From positions 870,001 to 902,000 of the forward strand of contig NC_014205.1 in NCBI RefSeq assembly GCF_000092465.1: 32,000 nucleotides of DNA, written 5' to 3'. Below, piece by piece: positions 6,376-12,569 of the stretch; the first letter of the stretch is position 1, and each line of letters opens with the position of its first letter. The stretch comes from Staphylothermus hellenicus DSM 12710 (lineage in GTDB: Archaea; Thermoproteota; Thermoprotei_A; Sulfolobales; Desulfurococcaceae). Made by a program: the position numbers and the translations under genes. Under the pieces are notes generated by a model. The model did no database searches and was not told the DNA's origin. It saw only the letters and a program-made list of their open reading frames with translations.

Positions 6376-7698
6376 TTAATGCTTTTTTGGGTGTTTTATT
6401 AGTGTGTAGAGTAGTGATATTAGGATGAGTGTTGGTATGGAGCTGCCTAGTGTGTTGCCTGTCTCGGTGAATACTGGTATGTATGCTCCTGGTATGAGTG
6501 ATGCTGCTGCTAAGAGCATGTAGAATATGAAGCCTATACCCCATATAGTTATTGCTGAGTAATCCATTGTTTTCCCTGGGTTAAGGATCTTTTCTGGCTG
6601 CTTATAGGTTTCCTTATCCAGTAAGTAATCCATTACAAGAATTGCTGTAAGGCTTACGAATGCTCCACCTATTAGTAGTAGGAACCACTCATATTCTTCT
6701 ATAGGGAAAATTAATGCTAACACTGTCCCCAATACACCAACAAATATTATCTGTTTCCTAGCATCAGCTTTTGAAAATACATTCTTATACGTTATCGCCG
6801 CACTATATATGTCGAGAAATGTTGTAGTTGCTGTTGAAAATATTATTATAAGCATAGCAGGCACTCCTAACCCATAAACAACAATAATTGATATAGGGTC
6901 AAGACGTTTCAGCGTAAGATTCGATAAGGCTCCTAAGAAATAGAATAAACCGCTTGATATAAAGTATCCTATATAGCTTCCCCAAAATGCATGGCTTGGT
7001 TTCTTAGAGAATCTAGCATAATCTGCTATAAGTGGCGCCCAAGATACAGGCATAGCTATCACTAGATCTAATGCTACCCAGAAACCAGCCCAACTCTCCT
7101 CCACAGCCCATAATGAGCCAAGATCTATTCTTGTCAATACTACATAGGTAAGCCATACAGATAATATGAGAAGCAGTGCTGCAGCAACCTCCTCCAAAAA
7201 CCCCCACTTCTCAGGACCGACAAGAGTCCATAATGTAACTATTATGCCTAGGAATATTATCCATACATGGTATAAGCTGAGCCCCCATAATGTATTCGAT
7301 ACACTATCCATTGCAAGAGCTCCTACAACAAGCATTACAGCAGTCCATCCAATAAGTTGTAGATAATTAAGAATTGATGGAAGATATGAGCCTTTCAAAC
7401 CAAGAGGCTTCCTAGCCAACACCATTGTTGGCAAACCAGAATCTGCACCGGCAAGACCAACAATAGACAACAACAGATTCCCCACAGCATGACCAAGAAT
7501 TATCGCCAACAAGGATAGTTTAAGACCAAGCGACAAAGGCTCAGCAACAAGTAGTGCACCAGCCCAAAACTCAGCAATACTAATACCTGCACCAAACCAT
7601 ATAGTAAAGTTCTCCATAAACCCATATCCCCGCTTATCCCTAGGAACAGGCTCTATAGAGTATCCATAAGAAGACAATACACAACACCATGCAACCAA
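6376..7698 (-). CDS. NCS1-family permease (cytosine/purine/uracil/thiamine-precursor type)
   Basis: 440 aa and multi-pass. The N-terminus (IEPVPRDKRGYGFMENFTIWFGAGISIAEFWAGALL ... GLPTMVLARKPLGLKGSYLPSILNYLQLIGW) matches the CodB/NCS1 pattern. The start is TTG. Confidence 0.8.
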   Translation of the reverse strand: MVAWCCVLSSYGYSIEPVPRDKRGYGFMENFTIWFGAGISIAEFWAGALLVAEPLSLGLKLSLLAIILGHAVGNLLLSIVGLAGADSGLPTMVLARKPLGLKGSYLPSILNYLQLIGWTAVMLVVGALAMDSVSNTLWGLSLYHVWIIFLGIIVTLWTLVGPEKWGFLEEVAAALLLILSVWLTYVVLTRIDLGSLWAVEESWAGFWVALDLVIAMPVSWAPLIADYARFSKKPSHAFWGSYIGYFISSGLFYFLGALSNLTLKRLDPISIIVVYGLGVPAMLIIIFSTATTTFLDIYSAAITYKNVFSKADARKQIIFVGVLGTVLALIFPIEEYEWFLLLIGGAFVSLTAILVMDYLLDKETYKQPEKILNPGKTMDYSAITIWGIGFIFYMLLAAASLIPGAYIPVFTETGNTLGSSIPTLILISLLYTLIKHPKKH

Positions 7699-7916
7699 CC
7701 AGCTGTGGCCCTGTACTAAATATATTGATAAACAAGTTATAAAGATTATAATAACCAGGTAATCAATAATTAGTTATTAATAAGATACTGGAAACTAAAA
7801 AGATAACACTATAAAGCCGTAACTAATACTGTCTAAAACACAGTAGTGCTGGACCCTTGGAAACCATGTAGTAAATTATCAGTGGAATAGGTGTAGTAGG
7901 TGGGTTTAGCTAAGGA

Positions 7917-7924
7917 TTTATATA
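7917..7924 (+). promoter_or_regulatory. TATA-box-like element (TTTATATA) upstream of vapB-1
   Basis: It is centred ~28 nt upstream of the GTG start at 7949. That spacing fits an archaeal promoter driving a leaderless or short-leader mRNA. Confidence 0.4.
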
Positions 7925-7948
7925 GAGTAGTGGGATAAACATAAATGG

Positions 7949-8203
7949 GTGGGATTAGTGAGTGTGGTGGTTAGGGTTGATAGTAAGGGACGAATAGTTA
8001 TTCCAAAGAATATTCGGGAGGCTCTAGGTATAAGGGAGAAGCAGTTGTTAATGCTAAGGATAGTTGATGGCAAGATAGTATTGGAGCCTATTGGGGATGT
8101 CGCGGATAAATATTATGGTGTTGTAAGGGTTGAGAAGTGGCCAAGCGATCTAGACGAGTTCTTAGCTGGGGCTGTCCGGGAATGGTGGAGAAGAAGTACG
8201 TAG
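7949..8203 (+). CDS. vapB: AbrB/SpoVT-family antitoxin (VapB)
   Basis: 84 aa carrying VRVDSKGRIVIPKNIREALGI, the swapped-hairpin AbrB motif. It overlaps the downstream PIN gene by 22 nt. Confidence 0.85.
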   Translation: MGLVSVVVRVDSKGRIVIPKNIREALGIREKQLLMLRIVDGKIVLEPIGDVADKYYGVVRVEKWPSDLDEFLAGAVREWWRRST

Positions 8204-8601
8204 ATGTAAATATTTTTGTGTACTGGCTTGCAAAGCATCCCGAGTATGGTGAGAAAGCTAGGGAGTGGATTAGAAGAATTGAGCATAGTAGACGCGGAGA
8301 ATATATCACTTCAGCACTAACACTATACGAGCTAGCAGTAATATTATCAGGTCTTACAGGGAAAAACCTACGAGAAGAGAGGCTGGTTAAAACAATAATA
8401 GACGCAGTAACAAAACTACCAAGCCTAGAAGTAGTAGCCTTAAAATGGGAAGACCATGTTAGAGCACTAGAGCTAATGCAGAAACACAGCCTAGACTATG
8501 AAGACTCACTACACCTAGCAACAGCTCTAAGAAGCAAAGCAACAAAAATAATATCAAATAATAAAGACTTCGATAAAACACCCATAAAAAGAATATTCTA
8601 A
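8182..8601 (+). CDS. vapC: PIN-domain ribonuclease toxin (VapC)
   Basis: The ATG at 8182 is in frame within track ORF 8137-8601. Acidic PIN positions are present: YVDVN, YELAV, DYEDSLHLATA and NNKDFD. Confidence 0.85.
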   Translation: MVEKKYVDVNIFVYWLAKHPEYGEKAREWIRRIEHSRRGEYITSALTLYELAVILSGLTGKNLREERLVKTIIDAVTKLPSLEVVALKWEDHVRALELMQKHSLDYEDSLHLATALRSKATKIISNNKDFDKTPIKRIF

Positions 8602-10772: not shown

Positions 10773-10786
10773 GGATCAACTATACT

Positions 10787-10991
10787 TCATCCCATATACT
10801 GCTCAGATAAGGTGTCAGTAGCAAAAACATTTCTAATCCATATCTAATACCATCTATCCACAACACTAACTATAGGGTAAACCCCTAATTCAATATTCTT
10901 CCTAATCCTTCCACCAACAATTGCTCTTAGGAGATCAGTCTTTACACTTATTCTTACTAGGGGGTAGAAGATATATTGTATCTATGATCAT
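10787..10991 (-). pseudogene. Possible vapC (PIN) debris downstream of the 48-aa RHH ORF
   Basis: An ATGA stop/start overlap with the RHH ORF is followed by MIIDTIYLLPPSKNKCKD*. After frameshifts come DLLRAIVGGRIRKNIELGVYPIVSVVDRWY* and IWIRNVFATDTLSEQYMG*. The MIIDT start and the ATDT piece are PIN-like. The total length is about half of a PIN domain. Confidence 0.3.
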
Positions 10992-11134
10992 CTCTCAGCA
11001 AGCCTCTTACTAAGCCTTCTCCGAAAATTGTTCAGCTCCCCGACACTGGCTTCTGCAAGCTTCTCCGAGTACAATAGTCTTACAAGCTTCTCATACACAT
11101 CGTCATCCAACACCACAGTTGTACGCTTAGGCAT
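10988..11134 (-). CDS. Small ribbon-helix-helix (CopG/VapB-like) protein, 48 aa, below the ORF-track cutoff
   Basis: My own translation is MPKRTTVVLDDDVYEKLVRLLYSEKLAEASVGELNNFRRRLSKRLAER*. The N-terminal beta-strand plus helix pattern (TTVVLDDDVYEKL) is typical of RHH antitoxins. Confidence 0.5.
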   Translation of the reverse strand: MPKRTTVVLDDDVYEKLVRLLYSEKLAEASVGELNNFRRRLSKRLAER

Positions 11135-11413
11135 ATAATCACCTAAACATAAAAATGCTTACAGCACTATAAAATATTCTTAGACAAAATCCTTCTTCTC
11201 CAAAAGCTCTCAGCAGAAGAAAACATCTCTCAATTCTCCAAATAATATAACTTGTGTTAGATGATGAAATATTAGATACTATACCCTTTCGTGTCCATCT
11301 ACCCCATATTGGGTATAGGACTTGGGGTTCAGCCTACATAGGTCACTTTTAAGGGCTCGCCCTGTTTCGGGGATAATTCTTGAGGCCCTGCAATAGAAGT
11401 CTTCTTGGCGCAT

Positions 11414-12331
11414 TCATATTTTTATTCTGCTGCCTACGTGTAGTTCTATGTAGTGATCATGGTAGTTTTGGTCTAGAATGGATCTGATGGTGTCTCCGCT
11501 GCAGTGGATGGGGGCTATGTATTTTATATTAAGGCTTATTAGTTCTTCAACAACTTTTTGGCACATATCCTGCGGTGCCCAAGCCATGTGGAAGCCCCCG
11601 ATAACAATATATGCCTTAACACCTAGATCACTAATGGCCTTCTTAACTATGTTAACAACTCCGGGATGGCTGCATCCCACAAATACTGCTAAACCCTTAC
11701 CTCTAACATATACGGCTAATGCTTGTTCCCATGGAGGCCCATATAGCTCGCCAATGATTGCTACGCCTCTGCTAATAATTGTTGTCTTATTAACCTCGAT
11801 AACATTTACACCTAGCTCCTTAATATTGTTCTTAACCATATTGTTCATACCGCTTGGTATGTATACTTTAATACCTGGATTAAGGCTTGCAATATAGGGG
11901 AGACCGCCAACATGGTCTCCGTGTTCATGAGATATTACAACAACATCGATTGATCTTGGATCAATTCCTAAAGCCTCCATATTCCTTCTAAGAACATCTG
12001 GATCAGGGCCTGTATCGAATAAAATCCTTAAACCAGGTACATCAACAAGTATGCTTAAACCCCATGCAGTAGCGAGATTAGTATCTGGATTATTATCCAC
12101 AACTATGGTTACATTACACTCCTCCACAGGCTCTAGAAACGTTGGCGGAGTAGCGTTTGTGGTAGAGATTGTGGTTGGTGAAGATGATTTATTAGTGAAC
12201 GAGGTTGGTGAAGCCTGTCCCCGCTGGCCCCCCAAACCCGGAGGTCCTAAGATCAATACCACTAATAAAGCTATTATAATGAGAACCACAACAATCAATA
12301 CTACAACCTTCACGGAGGCCCCACTAAGCAA
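11414..12331 (-). CDS. MBL-fold metallo-hydrolase (MJ0301-like) with an N-terminal membrane anchor and a Ser/Thr/Pro linker
   Basis: It has the HxHxDH motif VISHEHGDHVGG. The N-terminus is hydrophobic (VKVVVLIVVVLIIIALLVVLIL) and is followed by SPTSFTNKSSSPTTISTTNATPPT. The start is TTG. Confidence 0.8.
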   Translation of the reverse strand: MLSGASVKVVVLIVVVLIIIALLVVLILGPPGLGGQRGQASPTSFTNKSSSPTTISTTNATPPTFLEPVEECNVTIVVDNNPDTNLATAWGLSILVDVPGLRILFDTGPDPDVLRRNMEALGIDPRSIDVVVISHEHGDHVGGLPYIASLNPGIKVYIPSGMNNMVKNNIKELGVNVIEVNKTTIISRGVAIIGELYGPPWEQALAVYVRGKGLAVFVGCSHPGVVNIVKKAISDLGVKAYIVIGGFHMAWAPQDMCQKVVEELISLNIKYIAPIHCSGDTIRSILDQNYHDHYIELHVGSRIKI

Positions 12332-12569
12332 TCAACCACACCCACCCAAGTACAGAAACAGATAATAACCCAAGCATCATAGGAAGTATTTAAACAAATA
12401 TATTAATAAGCCTTCATTTTGCCCCCACCCACACCATCTATCACTAGTGTATCATTTCGTATCTGCAACAAGAACCTCTAATTCCTCCGTGAACATCGAG
12501 AAAAAACTGCAGTGTTATGGGTGGCTGTCAAGGTTACAAGCTCGGCTGTATATGGTTTGATAAACACCA

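What the first reader, a model, noticed from the sequence alone, without database searches (positions are those of the whole stretch)
6376..12440. Composition and codon gradient along transcription units: G+T-rich 5' ends, A+C-rich 3' ends
I counted third codon positions by hand at three loci:

| Locus | 5' sample | 3' sample |
|---|---|---|
| Permease 6376-7698(-) | first 100 codons: 81 G/T-ending | last 61 codons: 52 A/C-ending (85%) |
| vapBC-1 operon | vapB, 84 codons: 57 G/T-ending (68%) | last 95 codons of vapC (8314-8598): 76 A/C-ending (80%) |
| GH130-like 19896-20996(-) | first 60 codons: 52 G/T-ending (87%) | last 60 codons: 37 A/C-ending (62%) |

- **Other loci, by eye.** The same flip appears in vapBC-2, HEPN/MNT-1, the MBL gene (its last ~45 codons are almost all A/C-ending) and the GlmS-like gene. 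The rml operon behaves as one unit, with the flip mainly in its last gene (3577-4002).
- **Synonymous choices flip.** Leu goes from TTG/TTA to CTA, Tyr from TAT to TAC, Val from GTT/GTG to GTA, and Lys from AAG to AAA.
- **Strand symmetry.** A keto-to-amino gradient is its own reverse complement. The plus strand therefore shows a sawtooth that resets near gene or operon starts whatever their orientation, at about 4210, 5950, 7880, 8910, 9710, 12450, 19850 and 21060.
- **Exceptions.** The gradient is weak or absent in the three most AT-rich genes (4523-5941, 15893-16638, 21514-22197), which may be recent arrivals.
- **Possible cause.** Transcription-associated deamination of the displaced coding strand (C to U, A to hypoxanthine) would enrich G+T and is plausibly stronger at high temperature. 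It does not obviously explain the inversion at 3' ends.

I am not aware of a described intragenic flip of this size.
Basis: partly seen in the sequence, partly recalled or inferred. Interest (0 to 1): 0.85.

Follow-up and report, generated by a model that had tools for sequence, protein, structure and literature searches.

The report
Strand-composition sawtooth reset at intergenic spacers
In this heat-loving archaeon (Staphylothermus hellenicus), many transcription units start rich in G and T and end rich in A and C, flipping back at the gaps between genes; this large and apparently undescribed pattern most likely records heat damage to whichever DNA strand is left unpaired by transcription running outward from those gaps.

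Summary
The window is Staphylothermus hellenicus chromosome. All six hand counts reproduce within a few codons. With amino-acid sequence held fixed by synonymous shuffling, 21 of 32 genes show a falling G/T-ending fraction (permease z about -7, GH130 -5.4, MBL -4.5).

"Gradient" is not the best description. There are G+T-rich heads and A+C-rich tails at the ends of transcription units, not of cistrons. The plus strand switches from A+C-rich to G+T-rich inside intergenic spacers, whatever the orientation of the flanking genes.

- Tails run into non-coding DNA and shift amino-acid usage.
- Tail strength rises with the length of the downstream spacer (rho -0.43, p 2e-6).
- At 4-fold sites the tail composition is the Watson-Crick complement of the head composition.

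The effect is lineage-specific: strongest here, weaker in other Desulfurococcaceae, near zero in Thermoplasmata and bacteria. It is also patchy within S. hellenicus.

My best explanation is inferred, not shown: heat damage to the displaced non-template strand of transcripts leaving AT-rich spacers in both directions. Selection on the RNA remains a serious rival. A per-gene translational ramp, 5'-3' pairing, chance and assembly error are rejected. I found no prior description.

The parts
1..3760 (+). rml operon body (5 genes). G+T-rich on the sense strand throughout, with no per-gene reset.
   Evidence: G/T-ending fraction is mostly 57-83% per 30-codon bin over 3.7 kb. Gene gaps are 8-27 nt.
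3760..4199 (+). A+C-rich tail of the rml operon (last 80 codons plus the downstream spacer).
   Evidence: Cumulative keto skew falls by 69 over 439 nt to a minimum at 4199. Third positions are 60% A/C.
5961..6560 (-). A+C-rich tail of the CytX permease unit: last ~61 codons (6379-6561) plus the whole 3' spacer down to the next promoter region.
   Evidence: Third positions are A .56, C .33, G .07, T .05. The spacer is 59% A+C on the sense strand. There is one sense T-run (at 5956) against six antisense T5+ runs. Residues 371-433 are shifted to amino acids whose codons are poor in G/T.
7290..7842 (-). G+T-rich head of the permease unit (first ~120 codons plus the leader/promoter side).
   Evidence: Third positions are T .50, G .29, A .16, C .05. 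The zone boundary lies near codon 120.
7842..8300 (+). G+T-rich head of vapBC-1 (vapB-1 and the first ~55 codons of vapC-1).
   Evidence: vapB-1 is 68% G/T-ending. Cumulative skew rises by 101 from 7842 to 8271. Pfam hits are MazE-like and PIN.
8300..8904 (+). A+C-rich tail of vapBC-1 (last 95 codons plus 300 nt of non-coding DNA).
   Evidence: Third positions are 80% A/C. The spacer 8602-8900 is A .38, C .26, G .14, T .22. The switch is at 8904.
8904..9710 (+). vapBC-2 unit (CcdA-like antitoxin 9013-9237, toxin 9238-9663). Head to about 9434, then tail.
   Evidence: Synonymous-shuffle z is -2.8 and -1.9.
9710..10582 (+). G+T-rich head and body of HEPN/MNT-1.
   Evidence: Cumulative skew rises by 158 over 872 nt. 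Pfam hits are HEPN and NTP_transf_2.
10582..11251 (+). A+C-rich tail of HEPN/MNT-1. It runs through a small minus-strand ribbon-helix-helix-like ORF (10988-11134) up to the switch at 11251.
   Evidence: The spacer is A .33, C .26, G .11, T .29.
11251..11547 (-). A+C-rich tail of the metallo-beta-lactamase-fold gene (last ~45 codons plus spacer).
   Evidence: The last 30 codons are 90% A/C-ending with no G.
12210..12507 (-). G+T-rich head of the MBL gene and its promoter side. The switch at 12507 is shared with the divergent CcdA-like gene 12607-12852(+).
17845..18124 (-). A+C-rich tail of the GlmS-like gene. Its neighbour is convergent with only a 17-nt spacer, which makes it a problem case for the spacer model.
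   Evidence: The last 60 codons are A .52, C .22, G .08, T .18. Cumulative skew minimum at 17845.
20264..21225 (-). G+T-rich head of the GH130 gene, extending into the upstream spacer.
   Evidence: The first 60 codons have T3 .73. Bins run 83, 90, 67 and so on. z is -5.4.

Best explanation
The feature is a kilobase-scale sawtooth in strand composition centred on intergenic spacers. On both sides of a spacer, the strand that reads 5'->3' away from it is enriched in T and G. A transcription unit therefore begins G+T-rich. If a spacer follows it, it ends A+C-rich, because its 3' end is the 'outward' side of that next spacer on the opposite strand.

**Proposed mechanism (inferred, not shown).** AT-rich spacers fire transcription in both directions. 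Archaeal TATA/TBP promoters are intrinsically bidirectional. At about 85-90 C (my recollection of the growth range) the displaced non-template strand suffers cytosine deamination (C>T), adenine deamination (A>G) and depurination (purine>T). Over evolutionary time this loads T and G onto the outward strand, and the complement (A, C) appears on the sense strand at 3' ends.

Protein-coding constraint confines most of the change to synonymous sites. Selection against sense-strand T-runs, which terminate archaeal transcription, limits the effect in heads.

**Shown:** the anatomy, its statistics, its independence of gene orientation, its dependence on spacer length, the complement symmetry and the lineage specificity.

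**Inferred:** that transcription and thermal damage are the cause, and that antisense transcripts cover the tails.
For: 1. The unit is the transcription unit, not the cistron. There is no tail, and only a small head, at junctions under 25 nt. Both are clear when the spacer is 60 nt or more. The rml operon stays G+T-rich for 3.7 kb.
2. For spacers of 80 nt or more, the plus strand goes from A+C-rich on the left flank (.43-.50) to G+T-rich on the right flank (.525-.57). This holds in all four orientation classes, with the switch inside the spacer.
3. The tail G/T-ending level falls as the downstream spacer lengthens. Tandem neighbours: rho -0.51, p 2e-5. Convergent neighbours: rho -0.34, p 0.017. 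All: rho -0.43, p 2e-6. Convergent pairs with spacers under 30 nt have no significant tail (-0.030 +- 0.030).
4. Complement symmetry points to one strand-specific process acting on opposite strands. 4-fold sites in heads are T .53, A .20, G .16, C .10. In tails they are A .60, T .16, C .17, G .06. The permease shows the same.
5. The pressure is on nucleotides, not on decoding. Tails continue into non-coding DNA at 59-64% A+C. The permease C-terminus uses amino acids with fewer G/T at codon positions 1-2 than 19 orthologs do (-0.231 +- 0.062).
6. Differences from the 88%-identical relative are zone-specific directional transitions.
7. The switch lies about 100-150 nt upstream of start codons.
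8. Bidirectional transcription from one TATA box is widespread in a hyperthermophilic archaeon (797 antisense against 834 primary start sites) and was confirmed in vitro (PMC6640164). Antisense RNAs are reported for archaeal type II toxin-antitoxin loci (PMC6523106).
9. Non-template-strand C>T and A>G bias is an established class of transcription-associated asymmetry (PMC2927911).
Against: 1. Non-coding tails (59-64% A+C) are much less skewed than third positions of the adjacent coding tails (80-90%). A neutral mutational equilibrium predicts the opposite, or equality.
2. The spacer after the permease carries six T5+ runs in the antisense direction. Antisense transcripts from the next promoter should mostly terminate before reaching the most skewed coding tail.
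3. The GlmS-like gene has a strong tail although its convergent neighbour is only 17 nt away.
4. Thermococci grow as hot and have bidirectional promoters, yet show only a weak effect (0.034 +- 0.013 against 0.134 here). Temperature plus bidirectionality is therefore not sufficient.
5. The effect is patchy within S. hellenicus and weak in the sampled loci of D. mucosus and S. marinus-like genomes.
6. I had no transcript data for this organism. Outgroup polarisation of substitutions was inconclusive.
Confidence: 0.42

Rival explanations
1. Selection on the transcripts themselves. Messenger RNAs are selected to have G+U-rich 5' regions and A+C-rich, G/U-poor 3' regions. Both are unable to form local Watson-Crick helices. 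The purpose could be initiation on leaderless or short-leader mRNAs, avoidance of premature U-tract termination near the 3' end, loading of a termination or decay factor on an unstructured C>G tail (analogous to a bacterial Rho rut site), or blocking of incoming antisense transcription by A-runs (T-runs on the other strand).
For: - Overall composition is continuous across the stop codon: about 63% A+C over all positions of the permease coding tail, against 58-60% in the spacer. Third positions alone are pushed to 89%. This is what selection on regional composition would produce under coding constraint.
- Tails have C well above G.
- Sense T5+ runs are depleted 18 against 61. The permease 3' spacer has a single sense T-run at its far end and six antisense ones.
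- Heads and tails occur at transcript ends, not at junctions inside operons.
Against: - The near-exact complement symmetry of head and tail 4-fold composition would be a coincidence.
- Convergent genes with short spacers are genuine 3' ends, yet they lack a significant tail. Tail strength follows spacer length.
- The same switch appears around spacers in every orientation.
- No motif emerged in the tails.
- No known archaeal factor requires such a composition (from my own knowledge, not tested).
- G+T-rich heads raise the risk of premature T-run termination.
Confidence: 0.25
2. A spacer-seeded DNA process other than transcription. Examples are promoter- or R-loop-primed DNA synthesis, repair synthesis or origin-like unwinding at AT-rich spacers. 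The outward strand would then be the exposed lagging-type template. This would be a miniature version of the replication skew jump seen at bacterial origins and in human N-domains.
For: - The sign and shape match origin-type skew: a sharp upward jump, then a decline.
- The switch is independent of gene orientation.
- The enriched bases (G+T) are those of leading strands in bacteria (established knowledge; PMC5291525 abstract).
- Bidirectional asymmetries originating at promoter-associated islands in human DNA were attributed to replication (PMC2817419).
Against: - Switches occur every 1-4 kb, far too dense for replication origins.
- The rml operon stays G+T-rich over 3.7 kb in the direction of transcription. 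That fits a processive transcript better than a short-range bubble.
- No such process is known in Thermoproteota (from my own knowledge).
Confidence: 0.1
3. Translational selection on codons. This would be a ramp from wobble-decoded U- or G-ending codons at the start to Watson-Crick-decoded C- or A-ending codons at the end, tuning ribosome speed along the message.
For: - A/C-ending codons pair by Watson-Crick with G34/U34 tRNAs, while U-ending codons need G:U wobble (established decoding rules).
- Third positions carry the largest effect.
- A small head remains even in genes internal to operons (+0.053 +- 0.020).
Against: - The pattern is set per transcription unit, not per cistron.
- It extends into non-coding DNA on both sides.
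- It changes amino-acid usage at codon positions 1-2.
- It depends on spacer length and appears symmetrically on the antisense strand.
- Heads span 100 codons or more, and the tails have no counterpart in ramp models.
Confidence: 0.06
4. Mosaic origin or chance. The strongly patterned genes would have been acquired from a donor with a different composition, or the pattern would be sampling noise in a few genes.
For: - The effect is patchy.
- The permease is 88% identical to a gene in an organism whose neighbouring gene is at most 56% identical to anything found. That suggests transfer.
- The strongest region is a toxin-antitoxin island.
Against: - The direction is consistent: 7 genes below z -3 and none above +3.
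- Flips occur inside single conserved genes, at zone boundaries that are unrelated to domain or recombination boundaries, and in orthologs of several lineages.
- Control taxa show about zero.
Confidence: 0.04

Closest known systems
Transcription-associated mutational strand asymmetry (coding-strand C>T in enterobacteria; A>G/T>C and C>T/G>A asymmetries localised near start sites in vertebrates, PMC2927911)
   Same: - Excess of T and G on the non-template strand.
- Tied to the direction of transcription.
- Strongest near the start of the unit.
- Attributed to damage of the displaced strand and/or transcription-coupled repair.
   Different: - The magnitude here is far larger: third positions reach 80-90% of one base class.
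- The unit is 1-4 kb.
- The sign inverts at the 3' end of the same gene.
- The dominant 4-fold change is T to A.
- No substitution polarisation or expression dependence has been shown here.
Bidirectional archaeal promoters (antisense transcripts from the same TATA box; Pyrococcus furiosus, PMC6640164)
   Same: - AT-rich spacers.
- Head-to-tail genes with an antisense start about 50 nt upstream of the sense start.
- This would give outward transcription on both sides of a spacer. The composition switch here sits about 100-150 nt upstream of start codons.
   Different: - That work describes transcripts, not a compositional imprint.
- No transcript data exist here.
- The Thermococci loci sampled here show only a weak imprint.
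Replication-associated skew (origin jumps in bacteria; bidirectional asymmetries at human CpG islands, PMC2817419; N-shaped skew domains, recalled from memory)
   Same: Upward jump of (T-A)+(G-C) skew at a point, with a decline between points. The pattern is strand-symmetric.
   Different: - The scale is kilobases, not hundreds of kilobases to megabases.
- Jumps occur at nearly every long spacer.
- The pattern follows operon structure.
Intragenic codon-usage gradients and translational ramps (for example nucleotide gradients along E. coli genes, recalled from memory; 5'-3' GC3 gradients in grasses, PMC5460877 and PMC4316631)
   Same: Synonymous codon choice depends on position within the gene.
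   Different: - Those effects are per gene and small, or run along the GC/AT axis.
- This one runs along the keto/amino axis, is set per transcription unit, extends into non-coding DNA and inverts to the complement.

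Membership tests
Transcription-associated mutational strand asymmetry | The asymmetry follows transcription direction and the boundaries of the transcription unit. | tested here: met
   Heads and tails occur at unit ends but not at junctions inside operons. The rml operon behaves as one unit.
Transcription-associated mutational strand asymmetry | Polarised substitutions show an excess of C>T and A>G on the non-template strand. 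| tested here: inconclusive
   Unpolarised differences from the 88% relative are directional transitions by zone: 18 against 4 in the head and 11 against 1 in the tail. Outgroup polarisation resolved too few sites.
Transcription-associated mutational strand asymmetry | The asymmetry is present at neutral non-coding transcribed sites at least as strongly as at synonymous sites. | tested here: not met
   Non-coding tails are 59-64% A+C, against 80-90% at third positions of the adjacent coding tails.
Transcription-associated mutational strand asymmetry | Strength scales with transcription level. | not testable with these tools
   No expression data are available for S. hellenicus.
Bidirectional archaeal promoter output | An antisense start site lies about 50 nt upstream of the sense start, sharing one TATA box (BRE-TATA-BRE). 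| not testable with these tools
   Only composition could be examined. The switch lies about 100-150 nt upstream of start codons. TATA-like hexamers occur near many but not all switch points.
Replication-origin skew jump | One or a few switches per replicon, at origin and terminus. | tested here: not met
   There are at least 12 switches in 32 kb, all at spacers.
Translational ramp / positional codon bias | The effect is set per cistron and confined to synonymous sites of the coding region. | tested here: not met
   Genes internal to operons lack tails. The effect extends into spacers. Amino-acid usage is shifted in the permease tail.
Long-range 5'-3' mRNA pairing | Sequence complementarity between head and tail exceeds what composition alone gives. 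| tested here: not met
   Complementary 7-mer counts and longest matches fall within the shuffle range for 4 of 5 units. vapBC-1 is mildly high.
Rho-type (rut-like) termination region | An unstructured C-rich, G-poor RNA segment downstream of the stop codon, plus a cognate factor. | tested here: inconclusive
   Tails have C .19-.26 against G .11-.16. However, they begin about 200 nt before the stop codon. No Rho homolog is known in archaea (my own knowledge), and the factor side could not be tested.

The most novel reading that the evidence does not exclude
The head and tail zones are not a passive mutational scar. On this reading they would be either a functional, selected 'transcript-end code' in Desulfurococcaceae (G+U-rich starts, and A+C-rich ends that set where transcripts terminate or decay and that insulate units from antisense read-in), or the imprint of a so far unknown spacer-seeded DNA transaction such as R-loop-primed synthesis. 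In either case, sequence composition alone would map a process not yet described in archaea.
Probability: 0.25. Interest if true: 0.85.

Novelty: new variant of a known kind. Interest (0 to 1): 0.66.

Why it matters
**If the mutational reading is right.** These genomes would carry a readable record of where each strand is exposed. From sequence alone one could then map transcription units, promoters and pervasive antisense transcription in organisms that are hard to grow. One could also estimate how much thermal DNA damage escapes repair near the upper temperature limit of life. The sharp differences between related lineages would point to a specific repair or transcription factor that sets the strength.

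**If selection is the cause.** The pattern would reveal an unrecognised compositional signal at archaeal transcript ends.

**In either case there are practical consequences.**
- Codon usage in these genomes depends strongly on position. This affects gene finders, codon-adaptation indices, horizontal-transfer detection and substitution models.
- Protein termini are being pushed in amino-acid composition.

Tried and rejected
1. **5'-3' pairing of the G+U-rich head with the A+C-rich tail.** Complementary k-mers do not exceed composition-matched shuffles. A duplex-energy version timed out.
2. **A structured RNA or tRNA in the long spacers.** There are no Rfam hits at gathering threshold and no tRNAs in the window.
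3. **A shared motif in the tails.** Only compositional 5-mers were enriched.
4. **Convergent genes as a clean test of a 'promoter-less' spacer.** The apparent convergent spacer 10773-11413 contains a 48-aa ribbon-helix-helix-like ORF on the minus strand. The convergent class is therefore contaminated by unannotated small genes.
5. **Polarising substitutions with outgroups** (L001 and L044 against the window and L083). Too few sites resolved.
6. **Using L083 as a close relative genome-wide.** Its neighbouring UbiD-like gene is at most 56% identical to anything found. The 88% permease identity therefore probably reflects gene transfer.
7. **Sampling more of the S. hellenicus genome through paralogs.** The HEPN search returned only the query's own S. 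hellenicus entry. One look-up failed because the longest ORF is not the annotated product. The genome-contig scan did not return S. hellenicus or S. marinus themselves.
8. **The metagenome scan with the GlmS-like protein.** It gave no relative closer than 63%.
9. **The patch at 15017-15249** looked like a counter-example, but it is a Thr/Ser/Pro-rich linker.
10. **Literature.** Seven full-text searches found no description of this pattern.

Full report
**Source and gene map.** The permease ORF 6376-7698(-) is 100% identical to the Staphylothermus hellenicus CytX-type transporter, on a 1,580,347-bp contig. The window is therefore chromosome of this hyperthermophilic member of the Desulfurococcaceae. 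Pfam supports the gene calls:
- an rml sugar operon at 5-4002;
- two vapBC-type pairs and two HEPN/nucleotidyltransferase pairs;
- a metallo-beta-lactamase-fold gene;
- GlmS-like, GH130, asparaginase, ROK and MetRS genes, among others.

Two corrections to the mechanical ORF list matter here. ORF 8901-9254(-) is spurious; the real gene is a CcdA-like antitoxin at 9013-9237(+) that precedes the toxin at 9238-9663. A 48-aa ribbon-helix-helix-like ORF lies at 10988-11134(-) inside what looked like an empty convergent spacer. The window is identical to independent assemblies of other sequencing runs over 4,149 and 12,988 nt, so nothing below is an assembly artefact.

**Checking the observation.** All six hand counts reproduce within a few codons, and so do the listed codon flips. 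I shuffled synonymous codons among positions that encode the same amino acid within each gene. After that control, the correlation of G/T-ending with codon position is negative in 21 of 32 genes, with mean z -1.63. The permease is at -7, GH130 at -5.4, MBL at -4.5, vapC-1 at -4.4 and GlmS at -4.1. With corrected gene coordinates the picture is the same. Amino-acid composition and chance are excluded.

Third-position strings show zones rather than a smooth gradient. In the permease, codons 1 to about 120 are almost all G/T-ending. The middle is mixed. From about codon 380 to the stop nearly every codon ends in A or C.

**Anatomy.**
1. *Switch points.* Cumulative keto skew on the plus strand has minima, where A+C-rich turns to G+T-rich, at 4199, 5961, 7842, 8904, 9710, 11251, 12507, 21509, 26872, 27912, 28626 and 31977. 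Almost all lie in intergenic DNA.
2. *Transcription units.* The five tightly packed rml genes stay mostly 57-83% G/T-ending for 3.7 kb and flip only in the last 240 nt plus the spacer. In a pool of 179 genes from 12 Desulfurococcaceae loci, genes followed by a junction under 25 nt have no tail (-0.015 +- 0.022). Genes followed by a spacer of 60 nt or more do (-0.07 to -0.09).
3. *Non-coding DNA.* Tails continue past the stop codon. The 300 nt after vapC-1 are A .38, C .26, G .14, T .22. The 414 nt after the permease are 59% A+C on the sense strand, right up to the next promoter region.
4. *Complement symmetry.* Composition flips to its Watson-Crick complement. Permease third positions go from T .50, G .29, A .16, C .05 to A .56, C .33, G .07, T .05. 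Pooled 4-fold sites go from T .53, A .20, G .16, C .10 to A .60, T .16, C .17, G .06.
5. *Protein sequence.* Permease residues 371-433 use amino acids with fewer G/T at codon positions 1-2 than the same columns of 19 orthologs (-0.231 +- 0.062). The N-terminal head shows no such shift.
6. *Window metagene.* Sense-strand G+T fraction is about .45 from -500 to -200 of start codons. It crosses .5 near -120, peaks at .60 at the start and decays by +150 to +400. Around stops it dips to .43-.47 from -200 to +50 (pooled version).

**The spacer rule.** This is the main new result. Tail strength depends on the length of the downstream spacer, whichever way the next gene points.

| Downstream neighbour | Spearman rho | p |
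|---|---|---|
| Tandem | -0.51 | 2e-5 |
| Convergent | -0.34 | 0.017 |
| All | -0.43 | 2e-6 |

Convergent pairs separated by less than 30 nt are genuine 3' ends, yet they show no significant tail (-0.030 +- 0.030). Those separated by 100 nt or more do (-0.091 +- 0.043). I then centred the analysis on spacers of 80 nt or more. The plus strand is A+C-rich on the left flank (.43-.50) and G+T-rich on the right flank (.525-.57) in tandem-plus, tandem-minus, divergent and convergent classes alike. The switch falls inside the spacer. In the convergent class the left flank itself is .498, and the A+C-rich part lies in the left half of the spacer (.447). The feature is therefore best described as 'outward G+T' on both sides of intergenic spacers. 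The 5'-to-3' gradient along genes follows from that.

**Distribution.** Per-locus mean z for 58 loci recovered with a CytX profile:
- window -1.94;
- Thermosphaera loci -1.87 and -1.15;
- two other Desulfurococcaceae/Desulfurococcales loci about -1.1;
- most other thermophilic archaeal loci -0.2 to -0.7;
- bacterial loci about 0.

Six of the nine loci recovered with the GlmS-like protein (GC 43-49%) give -0.85 to -1.81.

The spacer-flank difference, right flank minus left flank, falls with phylogenetic distance.

| Group | Flank difference |
|---|---|
| S. hellenicus | 0.134 +- 0.035 |
| Other 'positive' Desulfurococcaceae loci | 0.086 +- 0.011 |
| Other Thermoproteota | 0.047 +- 0.010 |
| Thermococci | 0.034 +- 0.013 |
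| Thermoplasmata | 0.003 +- 0.013 |
| Bacteria | 0.016 +- 0.006 |

The 'positive' loci were chosen on gene-level z, so that row is partly circular.

The permease ortholog shows the same head and tail in a Staphylothermus MAG (69% identity), in Thermosphaera and in an 88%-identical metagenomic gene. It shows them only weakly in S. marinus-like genomes and not in Thermococcus.

The effect is patchy.
- Loci from D. mucosus, strain MEX13E-LK6-19 and S. marinus-like MAGs give -0.09 to -0.41.
- The 8.5 kb to the right of the window in S. hellenicus itself gives -0.22.
- Over all 47 S. hellenicus genes sampled (about 50 kb), mean z is -1.26 and p is 7e-5. Seven genes are below -3 and none is above +3. 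The variance is 3.8 where 1 is expected.

**Direction of change.** I compared the window with the 88%-identical gene at synonymous third positions of conserved codons.
- In the head the window has T where the relative has C at 11 sites, and G for A at 7. The reverse cases number 1 and 3.
- In the tail the window has C for T at 8 sites and A for G at 3. There is 1 reverse case.
- The middle is roughly balanced, and divergence is about 28% in all three zones.

The two copies therefore differ by zone-specific, strand-mirrored transitions. Polarisation with outgroups was inconclusive. The relative's neighbouring gene is at most 56% identical to anything found, so the permease has probably moved between lineages with different strengths of the bias.

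**Mechanism.** The complement symmetry, the independence of orientation, the dependence on spacers and the spill-over into non-coding DNA and amino-acid usage all argue for one thing: a process acting on DNA strands and radiating from spacers.

The simplest candidate is transcription leaving spacers in both directions. Archaeal TBP binds TATA boxes symmetrically. In Pyrococcus furiosus a large share of the 797 antisense start sites arise about 50 nt upstream of sense start sites from the same TATA box, and this was confirmed in vitro (PMC6640164). Antisense RNAs have also been reported at archaeal type II toxin-antitoxin loci (PMC6523106).

Damage to the displaced non-template strand (C>U, A>hypoxanthine) is the accepted basis of transcription-associated asymmetry elsewhere (PMC2927911). 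Such damage should be severe near 90 C. Depurination followed by insertion of A opposite the gap would add the purine-to-T component needed for T-dominated heads and A-dominated tails. That step rests on my own knowledge, not on a test here.

On this model:
- long operons stay G+T-rich because sense transcripts are processive;
- tails arise where antisense transcripts from the next spacer outweigh the sense effect;
- junctions inside operons show nothing because they lack a promoter.

**Problems for this model.** I do not want to hide these.
- Non-coding tails are much less skewed than the third positions next to them.
- The antisense direction through the permease 3' spacer carries six T5+ runs, which should stop most antisense polymerases.
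- GlmS has a strong tail next to a 17-nt convergent spacer.
- Thermococci share the temperature and the promoter type but not the magnitude.
- The effect is uneven within one genome.

The continuity of overall composition across stop codons, with third positions pushed to extremes, is what selection for a regional RNA composition would give. That rival therefore keeps substantial weight. I rate the transcription-damage model at about 0.4, RNA-level selection at 0.25, another spacer-seeded DNA process at 0.1, a codon-level ramp at 0.06 and mosaic origin or chance at 0.04.

**Comparison with what is known.** The phenomenon works like transcription-associated strand asymmetry combined with bidirectional promoters. 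Its shape resembles replication skew jumps and the bidirectional asymmetries around human CpG islands (PMC2817419). It is not a member of the replication class, because there are at least 12 switches in 32 kb. It is not a translational ramp, because it is set per transcription unit, extends into non-coding DNA and shifts amino-acid usage. It fails one defining expectation of a purely neutral mutational asymmetry, namely that non-coding sites should be at least as skewed as synonymous sites. Seven full-text searches found no description of an intragenic flip to the complement, or of spacer-centred sawteeth, in archaea. I therefore file it as a new variant of a known kind.

**Verdict.** The cause remains unproven. 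Whole-genome analysis and strand-specific transcript mapping in S. hellenicus would settle it.

Noticed in passing
window 8901-9254 (-) versus 9013-9237 (+): The 117-aa minus-strand ORF is an artefact that overlaps a real CcdA-like antitoxin gene on the plus strand. That gene abuts the toxin gene 9238-9663. Strand-symmetric composition makes long spurious antisense ORFs likely in this genome.
   Followed up: yes
window 10988-11134 (-): A small 48-aa ORF (MPKRTTVVLDDDVYEKLVRL...) that looks like a ribbon-helix-helix antitoxin. It has no Pfam hit at E<=0.001 and no obvious partner toxin. It sits in the 641-nt gap between MNT-1 and the MBL gene.
   Followed up: partly
window 15893-16303 (+): This HEPN protein is 65-75% identical to proteins from MAGs labelled Asgard (Odinarchaeota), Bathyarchaeia, Thermoproteales, Nitrososphaeria and Methanomethylicota. 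No second S. hellenicus paralog appeared among the best 120 hits. This suggests a widely exchanged cassette and fits the weak compositional pattern of this pair.
   Followed up: partly
L083 (JGI 3300014911 contig, 2753 nt) versus window 6376-7677: The permease is 88% identical between the two. However, the divergently transcribed UbiD-family neighbour in L083 is at most 56% identical to any protein found, and the window has vapBC-1 at that position. The permease has probably been transferred between lineages.
   Followed up: partly
whole window, coding regions: Runs of five or more T are 3.4 times rarer on the sense strand (18) than on the antisense strand (61). This is consistent with avoidance of oligo-T termination signals inside genes.
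   Followed up: partly
window 15017-15249: The strongest single G+T patch on the plus strand (+118 in 232 nt). It encodes, on the minus strand, a Thr/Ser/Pro/Gln-rich linker just after the N-terminal membrane anchor of a 743-aa protein with no Pfam domain. It is driven by amino-acid content and is unrelated to the sawtooth.
   Followed up: yes
window 5-562 and 3577-4002; L081 9435-9992 and 13007-13432: The rml operon begins and ends with a dTDP-sugar isomerase (RmlC-type) gene, so there are two paralogs in one operon.
   Followed up: no
window 4523-5941 (-) and 13103-15334 (-): Two large proteins (472 and 743 aa) have no Pfam family at E<=0.001. The first is AT-rich and lacks the compositional pattern.
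   Followed up: no
window 17928-19829 (-), 30636-31973 (-): The longest-ORF starts differ from the gene calls on record. GlmS-like is called at 607 aa rather than 633. The radical-SAM gene is 507 aa and runs past the window end. The permease is 433 aa rather than 440.
   Followed up: partly
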